Shown piece by piece: positions 23,004 through 48,934 of a DNA stretch of 64,000 bases. Location of the stretch: the NCBI RefSeq assembly GCF_001042715.1, contig NZ_CP009687.1:733418-797417 (forward strand). Direction: 5' to 3'. Below the pieces are notes generated by a model that was not told the origin of the DNA, made no database searches, and saw nothing but the letters and a program-made list of their open reading frames with translations. The position numbers and the translations under genes were made by a program. The first letter of the stretch is position 1, and each line of letters opens with the position of its first letter. This DNA comes from Clostridium aceticum (GTDB lineage Bacteria > Bacillota > Clostridia > Peptostreptococcales > Natronincolaceae).

Positions 23004-23834
23004 TTATTGTCTTCCTCTTAAAAACTTAGCTTCCAGCCATACGATAAGCTGATACATTAAAGCTGTAGCAATTGCCAAAACAATAACTCCCGCCATCACG
23101 ATATCTAATCTAAATACTTGACCGCCATAGACAATTAAGTAACCTAATCCAGCCTTAGAAACAAGAAACTCTCCAACGATTACTCCTACCCAGGACATAC
23201 CAATATTAATTTTCATGGTATTTAGCATAGTAGGGATACTGGCAGGAAAAACAACCTTTTGTAGTATTTGAAATTTTGTAGCACCGAAGGTCATAAGCAT
23301 TTTTATTTTTTCTTCATCTACTTCTTTAAAACCATTGTAGGTGGCTAAAATCGTTACAACGAGAGAAATTGCTAGGGCAGTTACGATGATACCCCGCATG
23401 CCGGCTCCAGCCCATATGATAATAATAGGTCCCAGAGCAATTTTAGGTAAAGCATTTAAGACCACCAGATAAGGGTCTAGTACTTTAGCTGCAAAATCTG
23501 ACCACCATAACATAATGGCAGCAATTGTTCCTAAAATAGTACCTATAACAAAACCCATGACAACTTCAAAAACAGAGATAGCTGTATGTTTAAAAAGTGA
23601 GCCGTCTCGTGATAGGTTAATAATCAATTTAAAAACTTCAGAAGGTTTACTGGTGAAAAAAGAATCAATCCAATTTAGGGTAGCGGCGACTTCCCATAAT
23701 AGTAGAAAACCTAATAAAACACATACTTGAGACAACTTAATTTTTAAGCGATGCTGCTTAAGGGCTTTAAGATATTCCATATGACTGGAGGAGTGCAAAG
23801 TATTTCCAAAAGTTTTATTATTTGACATACACAT
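23004..23834 (-). CDS. ABC transporter permease, NitT/TauT (nitrate/sulfonate/bicarbonate) family
   Basis: 276 aa, 6 TM. EAA-like loop (ALPKIALGPIIIIWAG). Overlaps the ATPase gene by 17 nt. Confidence 0.8.
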   Translation of the reverse strand: MCMSNNKTFGNTLHSSSHMEYLKALKQHRLKIKLSQVCVLLGFLLLWEVAATLNWIDSFFTSKPSEVFKLIINLSRDGSLFKHTAISVFEVVMGFVIGTILGTIAAIMLWWSDFAAKVLDPYLVVLNALPKIALGPIIIIWAGAGMRGIIVTALAISLVVTILATYNGFKEVDEEKIKMLMTFGATKFQILQKVVFPASIPTMLNTMKINIGMSWVGVIVGEFLVSKAGLGYLIVYGGQVFRLDIVMAGVIVLAIATALMYQLIVWLEAKFLRGRQ

Positions 23835-24603
23835 CTAACTCCTTCCATATTTCATTAAAGTAATGTCTAAATTCCGGAGCTTCACGACACTTTAAGGGGG
23901 TACGCTCAGCACTGCAGGTTAATTTAATTTCGTGGATACTTTTGATGCTGGCAGGTCGTTTAGAAAGTACTAAAACTCTATTTGCCATGGATATGGCTTC
24001 TGCTATGTCATGTGTGACCATAATAGCGGTTTTTTTCTCCCTCTTTAAAATCCCTGCAATATCATCACTAACCGCTAAACGACTCTGATAATCTAGAGCA
24101 GAAAAGGGTTCGTCTAACAATAGTAACTCTGGTTCAATAGCAAGGGTTCGAATAAGAGCAACTCTTTGGCGCATTCCACCAGATAATTGATTAGGATAAT
24201 GGTTTTTGAAATCCTTTAAACCGTAAGTATCTAACAGCTTTGTAACCCTTTCAATACTCTCCTGATTTACTTTATTTTGGATCTCCAATCCAATTAATAC
24301 ATTTTCCATAATTGTGCGCCATTGAAATAAGTGATCACTTTGAAACATATATCCAATACTTCTATTAGGCCCCTCTGTTTGCTGACCATTTATAAAAACT
24401 TCTCCAGAGCTAGGCTTGACTAGTCCCGCAATAATTGATAATATGGTGGATTTACCGCAACCACTAGGTCCTACAATGGTAATAATTTCTCCTCTATCAA
24501 CATCAAAAGAAAGATGATCCAAAGCCTTTGTCTCACCATCTAGCGTATGGTAAGTTTTTAAAATATTTTTTATCTCTATGAATTTAGTTTCTTCCACAAC
24601 CAT
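23818..24603 (-). CDS. ABC transporter ATP-binding protein, NitT/TauT family
   Basis: 261 aa. Walker A GPSGCGKST, signature LSGGMRQRVALIR, Walker B LLLLDEPFSALD. Confidence 0.9.
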   Translation of the reverse strand: MVVEETKFIEIKNILKTYHTLDGETKALDHLSFDVDRGEIITIVGPSGCGKSTILSIIAGLVKPSSGEVFINGQQTEGPNRSIGYMFQSDHLFQWRTIMENVLIGLEIQNKVNQESIERVTKLLDTYGLKDFKNHYPNQLSGGMRQRVALIRTLAIEPELLLLDEPFSALDYQSRLAVSDDIAGILKREKKTAIMVTHDIAEAISMANRVLVLSKRPASIKSIHEIKLTCSAERTPLKCREAPEFRHYFNEIWKELDVYVK

Positions 24604-40021: not shown

Positions 40022-40693
40022 TTATAAAGCCTCTTCCAACCTTTTCATCAACGCAGTTCTTCTTTCTCTAATCATATTCATGTAGAAGGTTTCCGTTTCT
40101 TGAACCACATCTGTAGGCAATTGATTTGCTCGAAGTTCAGCTTCCATCTCTTTTAGAATGTCTTGTAGTGCAACCTTCATAGAGTCTTCTAACATATTGG
40201 CAGCTTGAAGATACTTTCTAACCACCAGTGCTTGATTTAGTGGACCTTGTGATTTTTCTGCCATATATTCTTCATAGGCCTTTCTATACAAACTATTGGC
40301 CCTTTCTACTACCAAAGCCTCTAATCTTTCAAATTTGATTTGATACTTATTTAATATAGTTTCTACTGTGACAACTTTTTTCTCTTCAGATTGTGCAGCG
40401 GGGTTATTTGAATTATTATCCTCGATTAATGAATGATCCTCTGAATTATTTTCTATATCACTTTTTAATCCATCTTCTAAATCACCTTTTAAATCATTCT
40501 CTAAACCATTCTCTACGTCATAGAAGTCCAAACTTCCAAAATCAAAAAAACCTTCGCTAAGTTCTTGTTGTAGTTGGGATCTTAATGAGTCGTCTGCACC
40601 GAAAAAATAACTGTAGCCCCACACGCCAAGACCTGCAATAATCACTAAAAAAGAAATGAAAAAAATCAATAATTTTTTCTTCATGCAATTCAC
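40022..40693 (-). CDS. Membrane-anchored hypothetical protein with acidic low-complexity linker and helical C-terminal domain
   Basis: 223 aa. N-terminal TM (LLIFFISFLVIIAGLGVWGY), D/E/G/L-rich linker, and a predicted coiled-coil C-terminus. Confidence 0.4.
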   Translation of the reverse strand: MNCMKKKLLIFFISFLVIIAGLGVWGYSYFFGADDSLRSQLQQELSEGFFDFGSLDFYDVENGLENDLKGDLEDGLKSDIENNSEDHSLIEDNNSNNPAAQSEEKKVVTVETILNKYQIKFERLEALVVERANSLYRKAYEEYMAEKSQGPLNQALVVRKYLQAANMLEDSMKVALQDILKEMEAELRANQLPTDVVQETETFYMNMIRERRTALMKRLEEAL

Positions 40694-42837: not shown

Positions 42838-43575
42838 ATGCAGCTTATCATTAAAGATTTGAAAAAGCATTATAATAAAAAAGAAACTTTTGCCCTAGAT
42901 CATGTAAACCTCCATATTGATCAAGGAGAATTTATTAGCATCCTAGGCCTAAGTGGTTCTGGTAAATCTACTTTTATTCGTTGCCTCAATAGATTAATTG
43001 ATCCTACAGAAGGAGAGATTTATTTCGAAGGACAGGAAATAACAAAGTTAAGGGGAGAAGCCTTAAGACTCTATAGAAGGAATTTGGCAATGATTTTTCA
43101 ACACTACAATCTTATTCCTAGGATGAAGGTATTAACAAATGTGTTGGTCGGCAGGTTTGGCTATTTATCACCGCTGCAGATTCTTTTAAAACAATTTCCT
43201 AAAGAGGATGTAGAAAAAGCCAATGAGGCATTACAAAAGGTGGGTTTATTATCCTTTGCTGAGAGACCTATAAAAACATTAAGTGGAGGTCAGCAACAGA
43301 GGGTAGGGATTGCTAGGGCCCTTATTCAACAGCCTAAAATTATTCTAGGTGATGAACCAGTATCTAGTTTAGATCCTGTTACGGCTAAAGAGATTATGTT
43401 ATTGCTAAAAGAAATTAACGAAAATAGAAAAATTACTATGATGATTAATCTCCATTCAGTAGAGTTGGCTAAAACTTTTTCTACAAGAATTATAGGATTA
43501 AATAATGGAAGTATTGTTTTTGATGGGCCTCCTAGTGCCCTTGATGAAGTTGAAATTAATCGAATTTATAGATAA
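42838..43575 (+). CDS. phnC: Phosphonate ABC transporter ATP-binding protein (PhnC family)
   Basis: 245 aa. Walker A GLSGSGKST, LSGGQQQRVGIARAL, Walker B IILGDEPVSSLD. The D-E-C gene order differs from the common C-D-E. Confidence 0.85.
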   Translation: MQLIIKDLKKHYNKKETFALDHVNLHIDQGEFISILGLSGSGKSTFIRCLNRLIDPTEGEIYFEGQEITKLRGEALRLYRRNLAMIFQHYNLIPRMKVLTNVLVGRFGYLSPLQILLKQFPKEDVEKANEALQKVGLLSFAERPIKTLSGGQQQRVGIARALIQQPKIILGDEPVSSLDPVTAKEIMLLLKEINENRKITMMINLHSVELAKTFSTRIIGLNNGSIVFDGPPSALDEVEINRIYR

Positions 43576-43600
43576 ACGACCTTTTGGTCGTTTTTTTTTG
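43576..43600 (+). terminator. Rho-independent terminator after phnC
   Basis: AAACGACCTTTTGGTCGTTT + TTTTTTT. Confidence 0.7.
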
Positions 43601-43664
43601 TATAGGCTATCACCTTTTGTTGTCTCCTGCATAACTTATAGTGAAAATAGAGAGAGGAGGGAGA

Positions 43665-43949
43665 ATGATGACATTAGTACCAAGAACGCCACAATCAAAT
43701 TGCAGACCAAAACCAACACCTAAGCCAATACCAACGCCTTGTCCACAACTACCGGGAACATTGTTTAGAATTCATATTCCAGCAGGAGCAGTGATTAATT
43801 TGCTTAACCTTATAGAGCTTACTTCACCTAGTGGAATTTGCTTGATCATAAGAATTCCCGCTTTAGGAGGAAGCATAGGCAAAACTTTTTCTGCTGTAAC
43901 AGCTGCTATTGAGCAAGCTGGCGGCCAAGTAGAGATTATAGAAGAGTAG
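43665..43949 (+). CDS. Small Pro/Thr-rich, Cys-containing hypothetical protein, paralogue 1 of a tandem pair
   Basis: RBS GAGAGGAGGGAGA then ATGATG. 94 aa: MMTLVPRTPQSNCRPKPTPKPIPTPCPQLPGTLFRIHIPAGAVINLLNLIELTSPSGICLIIRIPALGGSIGKTFSAVTAAIEQAGGQVEIIEE. Confidence 0.5.
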   Translation: MMTLVPRTPQSNCRPKPTPKPIPTPCPQLPGTLFRIHIPAGAVINLLNLIELTSPSGICLIIRIPALGGSIGKTFSAVTAAIEQAGGQVEIIEE

Positions 43950-43969
43950 TATAAAAAAGAGGAGGGAGA

Positions 43970-44224
43970 ATGATGAGAACACCAGAAACAAACAATTTAG
44001 TTAGACCAACACCAACACGTTGCCCACAATTGCCAGGAACATTGATTAGAATCAATATTCCACCAGGAGCAGTAATTAATTTGCTTAACCTTATAGAAAT
44101 TACCTCCCCTGGCGGAGTTTGTTTAATTTTGAGAATTCCTATTTTAGGAGGAAGTAATCTTTTTTCAACTTTAACAGCTGCTATTGAACAGGCTGGAGGC
44201 AAAATAGAAGTTGTAGAAGAATAG
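43970..44224 (+). CDS. Small Pro/Thr-rich, Cys-containing hypothetical protein, paralogue 2 of the tandem pair
   Basis: Identical RBS/start context (GGAGGGAGAATGATGA). 84 aa, ~75% identical to paralogue 1 over the shared CPQLPGTL...AVINLLNLIE...TAAIEQAGG core, with a shorter Pro-rich N-terminus. Confidence 0.5.
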   Translation: MMRTPETNNLVRPTPTRCPQLPGTLIRINIPPGAVINLLNLIEITSPGGVCLILRIPILGGSNLFSTLTAAIEQAGGKIEVVEE

Positions 44225-44240
44225 CGAAAAAAACACTAAA

Positions 44241-44277
44241 AAAGAAGCATTGATGTATTCAATGCTTCTTTTTTATT
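44241..44277. terminator. Bidirectional terminator between the small-protein pair and the convergent glutaredoxin gene
   Basis: AAAAAAGAAGCATTGATGTATTCAATGCTTCTTTTTT. The right arm overlaps the last codons of the minus-strand grx gene. Confidence 0.65.
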
Positions 44278-45408: not shown

Positions 45409-45885
45409 GTGGAATTACTAGGGGGAGTTAGGGTTGAATGGCATGCTGGATTAGTGGGACATGCCAGCGGATCACAAACACCAGGAAACTATGTCATTCA
45501 TATAGGCGGACCTGGACAAACAGTTGACTATGTAAGTTATGATACTTTTTTAAGAGACAGAAATGGAAATAGACGGACATTTATGGGACAATATTATCAG
45601 CCGGTAGGTGATAATTTCGTATATTATGATATATTTTATACGGTACATGATTTAACTAATTTGAGAATTGGCTATACAGCTGCTCCTGTCATGAGTACTA
45701 CAACAAGTAGTGGCACTATTCATCCTCAAACGATTACGAGAATGAGATGTGATGCTGTAGTAGAGTATTGCTATGAATACAATGGAGTTAGATTGTTAGG
45801 GCCAGAAGGTGCATGGAACATTTCAACAGCACTTGGTTTGACTATCATCCTGTTTCTTACAGCCCTTCAATGCAGGCAAGTGTAA
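45409..45885 (+). CDS. Hypothetical protein with C-terminal hydrophobic anchor (non-ATG start likely)
   Basis: ~158 aa. ...GNYVIHIGGPGQTVDYVSYDTF... followed by a C-terminal TM-like segment LGLTIILFLTAL. Frame is open from 45360, so the precise start is uncertain. Confidence 0.35.
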   Translation: MELLGGVRVEWHAGLVGHASGSQTPGNYVIHIGGPGQTVDYVSYDTFLRDRNGNRRTFMGQYYQPVGDNFVYYDIFYTVHDLTNLRIGYTAAPVMSTTTSSGTIHPQTITRMRCDAVVEYCYEYNGVRLLGPEGAWNISTALGLTIILFLTALQCRQV

Positions 45886-45994
45886 TGACCCAAAGATAGT
45901 TTAGAACAATTATTCAACTATATATGTTATGGGATATTCCATAACATATATAGTTTTCCCAAATGATTTGACAATAACATTTCGGAGGTTAATT

Positions 45995-46477
45995 ATGAAA
46001 TTATCAAATCTTAATACAATAAATAAAGTTATAATAGTAATTATCTCAGCACTTTTTTTTGTGTTGAATCATTATTTTTTTGCTTATATTTATAACTCCC
46101 AATTAGAACTTGATGATCTTAGATTGATTACTTTTGTATTTATATTTATACCGTACTTGATATTCACTTGTATGATATACAGATATTATTTTGAAAAGTC
46201 GATAGTCAGATATACTATAACAGGATACTTTATATATCTGTCTATCATTAGTTATTATTCTGGATACAACAACCAGTTTTATAATTTTTATTACCAGATG
46301 CTATATAGTGCTCCTACATTGATGTTATATATACCTATTGCATTAACCGGGGATTATATAGGAGAAAAACTAATACCATTAAAGTCTAAATTTAATAAAT
46401 TTTTTTCTATACCTCTTATTATTTGTATTATTTATTTGGTAGTTTTTTTCTTTGCTTTAATAATCAAAAGTTCATAA
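45995..46477 (+). CDS. Polytopic membrane protein, Tyr/Ile/Phe-rich, unknown function
   Basis: Start chosen at ATG 45995 after RBS GGAGG (the track's 45929 start is upstream in frame). 4-5 predicted TM helices. Confidence 0.4.
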   Translation: MKLSNLNTINKVIIVIISALFFVLNHYFFAYIYNSQLELDDLRLITFVFIFIPYLIFTCMIYRYYFEKSIVRYTITGYFIYLSIISYYSGYNNQFYNFYYQMLYSAPTLMLYIPIALTGDYIGEKLIPLKSKFNKFFSIPLIICIIYLVVFFFALIIKSS

Positions 46478-47886: not shown

Positions 47887-48124
47887 ATTATTTACCCCCT
47901 TTAAAACTTTGAACTTTTTGTTGTTCACTGACATTCTATGTCATATGATTGATATTTTTTAGACGCTATTTTACTATTATAAGCATATGGTGGACAAATG
48001 TCAATGAAGGAAAGACAAAAATATAAAACTATCTTAATGCATACAATCCTTTGGGAAACGTCTAATGGACTATAACATAACATATAATTTAGTGTATATA
48101 GTTTTCTATAAGGAGGTTGAGATA

Positions 48125-48934
48125 TTGAAGGAAGCAAACTTTCAAGAAGTAGCTTTATTTGAGCACCGATTTTGGCTCCAAGTATTAGGAGATCATGCAC
48201 GATTTATATTTGATAATCTATCACCCAAGGAAACAAAGGAAATAGAACAGGCCAATCGTTTTATTTGTATTTTTGATAAACTATTGGAGGAAGCTAGAAA
48301 ACCACTGAAGGATACGGAAGTAATGGCTCTTACGAATCAAGCCTATCATTATGCTCATGAAATCCGACTGTTTAAGCTGGACTTAATACGTCAGCACTTA
48401 ATTGGGGACATAGAGTTAGGTTTACCTCCTACTTTTATTAATCATATGGTAAATGAAGTAGAAGAATATTTGAGAGTATTAGCGTATCTGATGACAAGTC
48501 AAATACCTGTATCTACTGCCATTCATAATCATCTTGTGTGGCTTCTAGATGCCGCTGGCCATGCCGCTGGCATTGCTGGTGATTTAGATATGGTAGAGAA
48601 AAGGTTGACAGAGCAAAGTCAACTCTTTACACAGCGTTTCGAAGAGTTTTACATAAAGGCTGTAGAAATGGCAGGGTACATGCGGACCTGTCTTGAGACA
48701 TTCCCTGCCTTTGACCGATTTAATCTACAGGTAGAGGGTGAAATTCAATTATTTAAAGTGTTTTTAAGAGAACTGGAGGAGATGGAGTTAGGCAACAAGG
48801 TTCTGGGCACTTTAAGTGCTCTCATGTTAGATCACATGGCTAGGGAAGAATGTTACTATCTTATAAAATTAGCTGAAGCATCGAATGTAAGGATGCCTGA
48901 TTGTGACCCTACAAAGCCTAGAACCGAAGGATGA
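48125..48934 (+). CDS. DUF2935-like protein (two repeated helical domains)
   Basis: FWLQVLGDHARFI and a second related half (HLVWLLDAAGHAAGI) resemble the FW..IM.EHA.FI signature of DUF2935. TTG start at 48125 follows RBS AAGGAGG. The track's ATG at 48065 has no RBS. Confidence 0.45.
   Translation: MKEANFQEVALFEHRFWLQVLGDHARFIFDNLSPKETKEIEQANRFICIFDKLLEEARKPLKDTEVMALTNQAYHYAHEIRLFKLDLIRQHLIGDIELGLPPTFINHMVNEVEEYLRVLAYLMTSQIPVSTAIHNHLVWLLDAAGHAAGIAGDLDMVEKRLTEQSQLFTQRFEEFYIKAVEMAGYMRTCLETFPAFDRFNLQVEGEIQLFKVFLRELEEMELGNKVLGTLSALMLDHMAREECYYLIKLAEASNVRMPDCDPTKPRTEG

What the first reader, a model, noticed from the sequence alone, without database searches (positions are those of the whole stretch)
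43641..44224. Tandem duplicated pair of small Pro/Thr-rich, two-Cys proteins of no recognisable family
Two adjacent genes (94 and 84 aa) share an identical RBS/start context (GGAGGGAGAATGATGA) and a ~75%-identical core: CPQLPGTL[FI]RI[HN]IP[AP]GAVINLLNLIE[LI]TSP[SG]G[IV]CLI[IL]RIP[AI]LGGS...TAAIEQAGG[QK][VI]E[IV][IV]EE. They differ mainly in the length of a Pro/Thr/Lys-rich N-terminal stretch (RPKPTPKPIPTPCP). Both carry two conserved Cys, one in CPQLPG and one in G[IV]CLI. A CPYC glutaredoxin is encoded convergently right behind them, sharing a terminator. I cannot assign the pair to any family I know. The architecture suggests a recently duplicated structural or secreted small protein, for example a spore coat/exosporium component, a surface polymerising subunit, or a modified peptide precursor whose Cys chemistry might relate to the adjacent Grx. 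It sits between a phosphonate transporter and an uncharacterised FMN-binding-protein operon. This is the most novel-looking coding content in the window.
Basis: seen in the sequence. Interest (0 to 1): 0.75.

Follow-up and report, generated by a model that had tools for sequence, protein, structure and literature searches.

The report
Unannotated clostridial late-sporulation small-protein pair
Two adjacent genes encode members of an unannotated but very strongly conserved small-protein family found in anaerobic spore-forming bacteria, and a late-sporulation (sigma-K type) promoter conserved in front of these genes across many genera suggests a spore-coat building block, not a modified peptide or a glutaredoxin partner.

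Summary
Two tandem genes (94 and 84 aa; Clostridium aceticum CACET_c07040/c07050) share a 75%-identical core with two conserved Cys and match no Pfam, NCBIfam, PHROG or PDB family. They are not an ORFan pair. The family has 267 clusters at 90% identity in Clostridia, Desulfotomaculia-type lineages and Heliobacteria, with 19 invariant core positions in a 40-sequence alignment. It has no conserved gene neighbour, and the glutaredoxin is adjacent in only 2 of 81 loci. The duplication is old (dS 0.64, dN/dS 0.26).

The key new finding is a conserved promoter, tGT(a/c)ACc-N16/17-CATAnnATA, 33-45 nt before the start codon. About 80% of family genes have it against 14% of control genes. Its -35 is 'AC', which distinguishes sigma-K from sigma-E. 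The proteins have no signal peptide. They consist of a variable basic Pro/Lys-rich arm, often with an extra Cys, and an acidic, hydrophobic, beta-rich 67-aa core.

My best reading is a late mother-cell, sigma-K-dependent structural protein of the spore coat or outer layer, possibly disulfide cross-linked. The RiPP-precursor, Grx-linked and recent-duplication readings are rejected. The fold remains unresolved (AF2 pLDDT about 62).

The parts
43574..43599 (+). Intrinsic terminator of the upstream phosphonate ABC ATPase gene (hairpin 43574-43593 plus T-run). It isolates the A-B unit from read-through.
   Evidence: terminator scan; sequence.
43609..43614 (+). -35 element of the predicted sigma-K-type promoter (ATCACC; core AC at 43612-43613).
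   Evidence: Read. The family-wide consensus is tGT(a/c)ACc. AC sits at spacer 16/17 in 72% of family promoters against 14% of controls.
43630..43638 (+). -10 element CATAACTTA (matches CATAnnnTA), 16 nt after the AC. The transcription start is predicted near 43645.
   Evidence: score 15.5, reached by only 2 of 58 scored window genes; a third scores 15.0.
43656..43663 (+). Strong Shine-Dalgarno GGAGGGAG of gene A.
   Evidence: GGAGGT/AGGAGG are enriched upstream of family genes (p about 1e-13).
43665..43949 (+). Gene A (94 aa from ATG 43665, 93 aa from ATG 43668; CACET_c07040). It has a basic Pro/Lys/Thr arm (residues 1-25, with C13) and a conserved core (C26-E94).
43961..43968 (+). Shine-Dalgarno of gene B, inside a 19-nt stretch identical to that of A. 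There is no separate promoter in the 20-nt gap, so B is co-transcribed with A (inferred).
43970..44224 (+). Gene B (84 aa; CACET_c07050), a paralogue with a shorter arm and no extra Cys.
   Evidence: dN/dS 0.26.
44237..44275 (.). Hairpin with a 17-bp stem and U-tracts on both strands. It is a bidirectional terminator shared with the convergent glutaredoxin gene.
   Evidence: One search matches this hairpin only as sub-threshold miRNA look-alikes.

Best explanation
A and B are two paralogues of an unannotated small-protein family that is specific to anaerobic endospore-forming Bacillota.

Proposed mechanism:
- They are transcribed as one bicistronic unit from a sigma-K-type promoter, that is, late in sporulation in the mother cell.
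- They are translated efficiently from strong Shine-Dalgarno sites and stay in the mother-cell cytoplasm, because they have no signal peptide.
- They are deposited on the developing spore as structural components of the coat or outermost layer.
- The compact, acidic, hydrophobic, beta-rich 67-aa core (strands separated by four P-x-G turns, then one helix and a final strand) is the self-associating module.
- The variable basic Pro/Lys-rich N-terminal arm, which carries an extra Cys in about half of the members, acts as a flexible connector.
- The invariant Cys residues form intra- or inter-subunit disulfides once the mother cell lyses.

Shown: the family, its conservation, its taxonomic range, the lack of conserved partners, the conserved sigma-K-like promoter, and the absence of secretion signals.
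Inferred: the timing and compartment of expression, coat localisation, self-assembly and disulfide cross-linking.
For: - The genes are real and constrained. There are 267 clusters at E<=0.01 and 109 clusters at 50% identity among 1.84 billion representatives. The 40-sequence alignment has 19 invariant columns. For A vs B, dN/dS = 0.26.
- The named source genomes are almost all from lineages known to form endospores (that classification is from my own knowledge): Heliobacterium, Alkaliphilus, Desulfosporosinus, Desulfotomaculum, Thermincola, Clostridium, Pseudobacteroides and others. There are no phage or plasmid copies.
- Strict promoter pattern: AC-N16/17-CATANNNTA occurs in 32 of 92 family regions against 37 of 1099 control regions (odds ratio 15, p 6e-20), and in 0 on the reverse strand.
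- Unbiased 6-mer enrichment finds TGT[CA]AC/CTTGTC near -61 and CATAGT/ATAGTA near -40.
- Two-block score >=13: 80% of family genes against 14% of controls.
- Anchoring on the -10 alone puts AC at spacer 16/17 in 72% of family promoters against 14% of controls. ATA, G[TCA]ATA and TTG are at about 0% there, and an unselected -10 position (A at +6) is 82% conserved.
- Saujet et al. 2013 (PMC3789822): sigma-E and sigma-K share the -10 and differ at -35 (ATA vs AC). The sigma-K regulon is dominated by coat and exosporium genes.
- Each gene of loosely spaced tandem pairs, and each member of the Cys-less subfamily, has its own copy of the motif.
- The best-scoring control genes include LysM/PG-binding (x3), YmaF (x3) and DUF2935 (x2) proteins. 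The low-scoring sample is mainly housekeeping genes.
- There is no signal peptide or TM segment. The arm has pI about 11 and the core pI about 5 with GRAVY 0.75.
- No sigma-70 promoter lies upstream of A, and the unit is bracketed by terminators.
Against: - There are no expression or proteomic data for any member, and no paper mentions the family.
- The promoter assignment rests on consensus matching. Single-locus matches occur by chance: an ABC ATPase gene in the same window scores equally well, and 2% of controls reach the top score.
- Sigma-K also drives non-structural genes, so 'coat structural protein' is one step beyond the promoter evidence.
- A Cys-less subfamily exists, so disulfides cannot be essential for the fold.
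- One source genome is labelled Calditrichales, which is not a spore former, although its gene content makes the label doubtful.
Confidence: 0.55

Rival explanations
1. A sporulation protein with a non-structural role. It would be made in the mother cell (sigma-K, or sigma-E with an atypical -35) but act as, for example, a germinant-permeability factor of the GerP type, a morphogenetic adaptor or a small chaperone for coat assembly.
For: It rests on the same promoter and distribution evidence as the main explanation. Spore-related genes occur sporadically next to family members: GerA, DUF421/YetF-like and CotF-like. Extreme sequence conservation is unusual for coat proteins, which usually evolve fast (own knowledge), and could instead reflect a specific binding partner.
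Against: No partner gene is conserved nearby. There is no Pfam hit to GerPA/PF or any other family. The strong Shine-Dalgarno, multiple dispersed or tandem copies per genome, and a hydrophobic beta-rich core fit an abundant building block better. The -35 is AC, not the sigma-E ATA.
Confidence: 0.2
2. Not sporulation-related. It would be a small cytoplasmic protein of anaerobic Firmicutes with some other function, and the promoter resemblance to sigma-K sites would be fortuitous or would reflect another sigma factor with a similar specificity.
For: There are no experimental data. The upstream regions are AT-rich, and CATA-type -10 matches are common (49% of control regions can be anchored). One unrelated ABC ATPase gene in the window scores as high as gene A.
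Against: The AC at spacer 16/17 is enriched fivefold over controls that carry the same -10 anchor. It is conserved across classes while the surrounding upstream sequence is not. No sigma-70-type promoter is present. The family is absent from the non-sporulating majority of Bacillota sampled in a 185,579-species genome scan, which returned only 90 confirmed loci.
Confidence: 0.1
3. A ribosomally synthesised modified-peptide precursor, or a redox peptide whose Cys chemistry is serviced by the adjacent glutaredoxin.
For: The proteins are small, carry conserved Cys and are present in tandem copies. A CPYC glutaredoxin lies immediately downstream in the window and upstream in Natronincola.
Against: Grx is adjacent in 2 of 81 loci, both from close relatives. 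The 148 immediate neighbours fall into 136 Pfam families, none occurs more than 4 times, and none of the recurrent ones listed is a known RiPP-maturation enzyme. The architecture is the reverse of a leader-core precursor: the variable part is N-terminal, can be only 3 residues long, and is followed by a 67-aa invariant domain with predicted secondary structure.
Confidence: 0.03

Closest known systems
S-type endospore appendage subunits Ena1A/Ena1B (DUF3992) of the Bacillus cereus group
   Same: Both are small (about 12-14 kDa vs 9-10 kDa). Both are encoded by adjacent paralogous genes. Both have a flexible N-terminal extension carrying Cys plus single Cys residues in a beta-rich core. Ena subunits are made without a signal peptide during sporulation and self-assemble, with disulfides from the arm to the cores of other subunits (bioRxiv 10.1101/2020.08.21.260141).
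   Different: There is no DUF3992 match at E<=10. The core is about 67 aa with a predicted helix, not a roughly 100-aa eight-stranded jellyroll. There is no Cys-Cys motif, and the arm Cys is present in only about half of members. No ena1C-like third gene is present. Self-assembly is untested.
F-ENA subunits (DUF4183), including C. aceticum F-ENA-3 (CACET_c28680)
   Same: Both are about 10-kDa spore-surface fibre subunits present in Clostridia, with an N-terminal peptide that docks onto the next unit. C. aceticum itself is predicted to make such fibres (PMC12357932).
   Different: It is a different locus and a different family. There is no DUF4183 hit, no M-P-psi-psi-x-P-psi hook (A starts MMTLVPR, B starts MMRTPET), and no adjacent anchor protein with DUF4183 or collagen repeats.
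Cysteine-rich coat/exosporium lattice proteins CotY/CotZ/ExsY (own knowledge, not tested here)
   Same: They are late mother-cell, sigma-K-dependent, self-assembling proteins stabilised by disulfides, and they are often encoded as paralogue pairs.
   Different: They are larger (about 150-160 aa) and much richer in Cys. There is no sequence similarity (no Pfam hit).
GerP proteins (GerPA/GerPF, PF10676; own knowledge)
   Same: They are about 70-aa, paralogous, sigma-K-dependent coat-associated proteins.
   Different: They are encoded in a six-gene operon and belong to a different sequence family (no hit). The family studied here stands alone or in pairs.
Streptomyces chaplins (own knowledge)
   Same: They have a short hydrophobic beta-forming domain with two conserved Cys, occur in multiple paralogues, and coat spores and aerial structures by self-assembly.
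   Different: Chaplins are Sec-secreted actinobacterial proteins. There is no homology, and the family here has no signal peptide.

Membership tests
Sigma-K regulon (late mother-cell sporulation genes) | Promoter with -35 'AC' and -10 'CATA---TA' separated by 16-17 nt | tested here: met
   Window: AC 43612-43613, 16 nt, CATAACTTA 43630-43638. Family-wide: 80% vs 14% of controls. AC at spacer 16/17 in 72% vs 14%, with the sigma-E ATA at 0%. Consensus definition from PMC3789822.
Sigma-K regulon (late mother-cell sporulation genes) | Transcription that depends on sigK and occurs late in sporulation | not testable with these tools
   No expression data are available, and no paper mentions the genes.
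Sigma-K regulon (late mother-cell sporulation genes) | Occurrence restricted to endospore-forming Bacillota | tested here: met
   79 of the 80 fetched loci carry Bacillota, Clostridia-type or unclassified metagenome titles, and every named genus is, to my knowledge, a spore former. The single exception, titled Calditrichales (L031), has Firmicute-like gene content.
Spore coat / exosporium structural proteins | Physical presence in the coat or exosporium of purified spores | not testable with these tools
   This needs proteomics or localisation experiments.
S/L-ENA endospore appendage subunits (DUF3992) | DUF3992 jellyroll domain | tested here: not met
S/L-ENA endospore appendage subunits (DUF3992) | N-terminal connector with conserved Cys that cross-links to Cys in the core | tested here: inconclusive
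   An arm is present (median 18 aa). 62 of 117 members have at least one Cys in it, at variable spacing, and there is no Cys-Cys motif. The core Cys is near-invariant. Bonding is untestable here.
F-ENA endospore appendage subunits (DUF4183) | DUF4183 domain and the M-P-psi-psi-x-P-psi N-terminal hook | tested here: not met
   No Pfam hit. The N-termini are MMTLVPR and MMRTPET. Definition from PMC12357932.
F-ENA endospore appendage subunits (DUF4183) | Adjacent anchor protein (collagen-like or multi-DUF4183) | tested here: not met
   No conserved neighbour in 80 loci.
RiPP precursor peptides | Co-located maturation enzyme(s), and a conserved leader with a variable core | tested here: not met
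   The 148 immediate neighbours fall into 136 Pfam families, none in more than 4 loci. The variable part is N-terminal, 3-50 aa, followed by an invariant 67-aa domain.
Glutaredoxin-coupled redox pair | Conserved adjacency to a glutaredoxin | tested here: not met
   Grx lies within 8 kb in only 2 of 81 loci (the window and L015).
Secreted / sortase-anchored surface proteins | N-terminal signal peptide, and for sortase substrates a C-terminal LPXTG plus a TM segment | tested here: not met
   The longest hydrophobic run in the arm is <=3 residues in 114 of 117 members. The C-terminus is (V/I)E(V/I)(V/I)EE with no LPXTG.

The most novel reading that the evidence does not exclude
The family is the subunit of a previously unrecognised self-assembling spore-surface polymer (a lattice, rodlet layer or fibre) of anaerobic endospore formers. 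It would be unrelated to the DUF3992 and DUF4183 appendage families and to the CotY/ExsY lattices. In this reading the hydrophobic P-x-G-punctuated beta core stacks, and the basic Pro-rich arm with its Cys covalently staples neighbouring subunits. The A/B pair, and the Cys-less 'MTYREALE' paralogues encoded upstream in some genomes, would then be major and minor or terminating subunits.
Probability: 0.2. Interest if true: 0.7.

Novelty: new member of a known kind. Interest (0 to 1): 0.42.

Why it matters
Coat and exosporium proteins of Clostridia are poorly known, and few B. subtilis coat proteins have clostridial counterparts (PMC3789822). This family has no Pfam or NCBIfam model. Yet it is conserved almost residue-for-residue from Clostridium to Heliobacterium and Desulfosporosinus, which to my knowledge is unusual for coat proteins, a class that normally evolves fast.

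If it is a sigma-K-dependent coat building block, it would be:
- a marker gene for late sporulation in anaerobic Firmicutes, including uncultured ones;
- a candidate determinant of spore surface properties such as hydrophobicity, resistance and adhesion;
- a small, easily expressed candidate for self-assembly studies.

The conserved promoter also gives a cross-phylum set of about 70 aligned sigma-K-type promoters outside the model organisms.

Tried and rejected
- Family libraries: Pfam, NCBIfam and PHROGs scans of A, B and divergent members gave nothing significant.
- PDB profile search: it gave only a 29-residue hairpin match to the EXD2 exonuclease (E 1e-3). I judged it a local beta-hairpin resemblance, not homology.
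- Exhaustive profile search: the long multi-stretch hits (P0183, P0198, P0214, P0226) are unrelated repeat proteins or junk translations.
- Subfamily search: a word-indexed homologue search with the Cys-less member P0193 returned only itself. Cluster look-up of divergent members gave no organism names.
- Context: neighbourhood clustering and a batch Pfam scan of 148 flanking genes found no conserved partner.
- First k-mer test: it was contaminated by coding sequence (TGTCCACAA encodes CPQ) and was redone with RBS-based start selection.
- Promoter control: the within-dataset positive control for the sigma-K score is only suggestive, because the LysM, YmaF and DUF2935 genes it picks out are not proven sigma-K targets.
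- RNA elements: the Rfam scan shows no structured RNA apart from the terminator.
- Mobile elements: phage and plasmid tblastn searches found no match.

Full report
**1. Observation**

- ORF A ends at 43949. Its longest form starts at GTG 43641, but the starts preceded by the Shine-Dalgarno GGAGGGAG (43656-43663) are ATG 43665 (94 aa) and ATG 43668 (93 aa, the NCBI call).
- ORF B is 43970..44224 (84 aa).
- Both genes sit behind the identical 19-nt AGAGGAGGGAGAATGATGA.
- BLASTP of A against B gives 67% identity, E 5e-39. The core is 75% identical.
- The flanks are as stated: a phosphonate-binding protein, a permease and an ABC ATPase upstream, then a convergent glutaredoxin (PF00462, 7e-26) and an FMN_bind protein downstream.
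- Neither protein matches any Pfam or NCBIfam model, even at E<=10.

**2. The pair belongs to a widespread, highly constrained family**

- The window is Clostridium aceticum (CACET_c07040 and c07050).
- The word-indexed search found 267 clusters at E<=0.01, all named 'hypothetical' and none with a Pfam domain.
- An exhaustive HMM search of 1.84 billion representatives found only 109 clusters at 50% identity and no distant annotated relatives. The long multi-stretch hits are unrelated repeat proteins.
- A 40-sequence alignment shows 19 invariant positions in a 67-aa core, C-P-Q-L-P-G-T-x-x-R-I-x-I-P-A-G-A-V-I-N-L-L-N-L-I-E-x-T-S-P-S-G-I-C-L-I-x-R-x-P-x-L-G-G ... A-G-G-x-V-E. It is preceded by an arm that varies in length and sequence.
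- Across 117 members the arm is 3-50 aa (median 18), rich in Pro (15%) and Lys (11%), basic, and without any signal-peptide-like hydrophobic run. The core is acidic and very hydrophobic (Ile+Leu 29%, Gly 12%). 62 of 117 members carry at least one extra Cys in the arm.
- A divergent subfamily with an 'MTYREALE' N-terminus lacks both Cys. It is encoded immediately upstream of a canonical member in several genomes.

**3. Distribution and context**

- A scan of one genome per species (185,579 species) returned 90 confirmed loci, and I fetched 80. They come from Heliobacterium, Alkaliphilus, Serpentinicella, Natronincola, Desulfosporosinus, Desulfotomaculum, Desulforamulus, Thermincola, Clostridium (tunisiense, punense, aciditolerans), Pseudobacteroides, Acetivibrio, Petroclostridium, Syntrophomonadaceae, Tissierellia and related MAGs. 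To my knowledge these are all endospore-forming anaerobic Bacillota.
- One contig is titled Calditrichales, but its corrinoid-methyltransferase genes and DUF2935-like neighbour make that label doubtful.
- No copy occurs in 50,697 phage or 72,556 plasmid records.
- Most loci carry one copy and 12 of 80 carry two. Several genomes have dispersed copies.
- Clustering all neighbours within 8 kb found no conserved partner. The most frequent non-self cluster is a generic ABC ATPase, in 21 of 80 loci at a median distance of 3.6 kb.
- A Pfam scan of the 148 immediately flanking genes gave 136 different families, none in more than 4 loci.
- The glutaredoxin is adjacent only in the window and in Natronincola (2 of 81 loci). 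The Grx link is therefore local synteny, not a functional module.

**4. The duplication is old**

- Between A and B, dS = 0.64 and dN/dS = 0.26.
- Each copy is about as similar to orthologues in other genera (70-74%) as to its neighbour (75%).
- Tandem pairs exist in other genera.
- Both copies are under purifying selection. The identical 19-nt translation-initiation context, set against this much synonymous divergence, points to selection on that region or to local gene conversion.

**5. The informative feature is the promoter**

- The unit is insulated by a terminator after the ABC ATPase gene (43574-43599) and by a bidirectional hairpin (44237-44275). No sigma-70-type promoter lies upstream of A.
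- Instead, tcAC (AC at 43612-43613), 16 nt, then CATAACTTA (43630-43638) lies 26 nt before ATG 43665.
- The strict pattern AC-N16/17-CATANNNTA occurs in 32 of 92 family regions against 37 of 1099 regions of other genes in the same loci (odds ratio 15, p 6e-20). It never occurs on the reverse strand of the family regions.
- I then selected start codons by RBS and used strictly upstream sequence. Besides the Shine-Dalgarno, the most enriched 6-mers are TGT[CA]AC/CTTGTC/GTAACC centred near -61 and CATAGT/ATAGTA/TATGTA near -40.
- A two-block score reaches >=13 in 69 of 86 family genes (80%) against 156 of 1117 controls (14%). It reaches >=15 in 33% against 2.2%.
- Anchoring only on the -10 element puts 'AC' at a spacer of 16 or 17 nt in 72% of family promoters against 14% of equally anchored controls. 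The sigma-E-type ATA, the sigma-F/G-type G[TCA]ATA and the sigma-A TTG are at about 0% there. A -10 position that my score did not select (A at +6) is 82% conserved.
- Saujet et al. [quoted passage not shown] They also show that the sigma-K regulon is dominated by coat and exosporium genes (PMC3789822).
- The members of loosely spaced tandem pairs, and the Cys-less paralogues, each carry their own copy of the motif. In the window, B follows A by 20 nt and must be co-transcribed.

Caveats on the promoter evidence:
- Within the window only 3 of 58 scored genes reach >=15: gene A, a DUF2935 gene, and an ABC ATPase gene that is presumably a chance match. Single-locus matches therefore prove little. 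The weight lies in the cross-genus conservation.
- As a soft positive control, the 23 best-scoring control genes include three LysM/PG-binding, three YmaF and two DUF2935 proteins. A matched low-scoring sample is mostly housekeeping genes plus CotJA and YabP. From memory, those two are sigma-E-class genes in B. subtilis.

**6. Structure**

- AlphaFold2 gave low-confidence monomers twice (pLDDT 63.6 and 61.3). The two models agree on secondary structure: four short strands, one helix and a final strand.
- In the sequence, the strands are separated by four P-x-G turns: LPG, PAG, PSG and PxLGG.
- A profile search of PDB sequences gave only a 29-residue match to a beta-hairpin of the EXD2 exonuclease. 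I read that as local resemblance.
- The fold is therefore unassigned. Persistent low confidence despite a deep alignment is compatible with an obligate oligomer, but it does not prove one.

**7. Interpretation**

- The best-supported reading is a late mother-cell, sigma-K-dependent product that stays in the mother-cell cytoplasm and is laid down on the spore as a coat or outer-layer structural component.
- That reading rests on five observations: a sigma-K-class promoter conserved across classes, restriction to endospore formers, no secretion signal, a strong ribosome-binding site, and multiple paralogues of a small hydrophobic beta-rich domain.
- The arm-plus-core layout, with Cys in both parts, resembles by analogy only the disulfide-stapled Ena1A/Ena1B subunits. 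Those are also encoded by adjacent paralogues.
- Membership of the known spore-fibre families fails. There is no DUF3992 or DUF4183 match and no F-ENA hook motif. C. aceticum's own F-ENA-3 is at a different locus, CACET_c28680.
- The RiPP and Grx-coupled readings are rejected on context and architecture.

**8. Verdict**

This is a real, previously unannotated family. It is most likely a new family of clostridial spore-coat or outer-layer proteins, which is a known kind of thing. Interest is moderate. The unusual degree of conservation and the possibility of a new self-assembling spore-surface polymer are what would make it worth an experiment. No paper in the searchable library mentions the family.

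Noticed in passing
window 48065..48934 (+); also L015:4176-4994, L030:4798-5559, L031:8327-9271: A DUF2935 gene (PF11155, 1.5e-59) carries a sigma-K-like promoter (AC-N16-CATAACATA, 49 nt before the start). DUF2935 genes recur within 8 kb of family members in 6 loci, and 2 are among the 23 best sigma-K-scoring control genes. DUF2935 may be an uncharacterised late-sporulation family.
   Followed up: partly
L051:1885-2322, L066:7489-7905, L068:7476-7889, L058:6780-7049, L080:7456-7815; proteins P0193, P0196, P0209, P0212: A divergent, Cys-less subfamily (90-150 aa, N-terminus MTYREALE..., GISL in place of GICL) is encoded immediately upstream of a canonical family member. Each gene has its own sigma-K-like promoter. 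It might be a minor or partner subunit.
   Followed up: partly
L051:2826-3155(-), L066:8416-8736(-), L068:8355-8678(-): YmaF-family genes (PF12788) lie just downstream of, and convergent with, the family genes in three related genomes. They carry strict sigma-K-like promoters.
   Followed up: partly
L004:6898-7479(-), L006:6554-7135(-), L009:7090-7809(-), L035:8289-9002(-) and 4 more loci: DUF421/YetF-like membrane protein genes lie within about 0.5 kb of family genes in 8 of 80 loci. A DUF421 protein is listed as sigma-G-controlled in C. difficile (PMC3789822). CotF-like and DUF1657-like small proteins also occur nearby in L009 and L006; I recognised those two by eye and did not scan them.
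   Followed up: partly
window 43650-43670 and 43955-43975: Genes A and B share an identical 19-nt Shine-Dalgarno and start context (AGAGGAGGGAGAATGATGA, with a double ATG), although synonymous divergence in the coding region is high (dS 0.64). This suggests selection on translation initiation or local gene conversion.
   Followed up: partly
protein P0223 (829 aa, from the representative library): It has four to five tandem repeats of 'RIVVPAGxTIRxGNxELSCPSGGxACVVV'. These resemble the family core motif RIxIPAGAVINLLNLIExTSPSGICLIV (E 3e-4). This may be a remote relative or a convergent beta-hairpin repeat in a large high-GC protein.
   Followed up: no
PDB 6k17_A residues 46-74 vs family profile positions 40-68: The EXD2 3'-5' exonuclease segment LSLLQMASPSGLCVLVRLPKL matches LNLIEvTSPSGICLIVRLPLL (E 1e-3). 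It is only a 29-residue stretch and probably a chance or local resemblance, so I did not treat it as homology.
   Followed up: partly
L031 (JAJGRE010000002.1, 'Calditrichales bacterium MX18-03'): This is the only family locus with a non-Bacillota title. The 16-kb locus has 48.5% GC, carries MtaA-like and corrinoid-protein-like genes (judged from their N-terminal sequences, not scanned) and has a DUF2935-like neighbour. The taxonomic label looks doubtful.
   Followed up: partly
window 23818..24603 (-): An ordinary ABC-transporter ATPase gene has a perfect-scoring sigma-K-like match (AC-N16-CATACTATA, 57 nt before the start). It is a reminder that single-locus consensus matches occur by chance.
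   Followed up: yes
window 45409..45885 (+), 45929..46477 (+), 40022..40693 (-): Three further ORFs near the finding have no Pfam family. 45929..46477 looks like a multi-pass membrane protein. 45409..45885 has no recognisable features.
   Followed up: no
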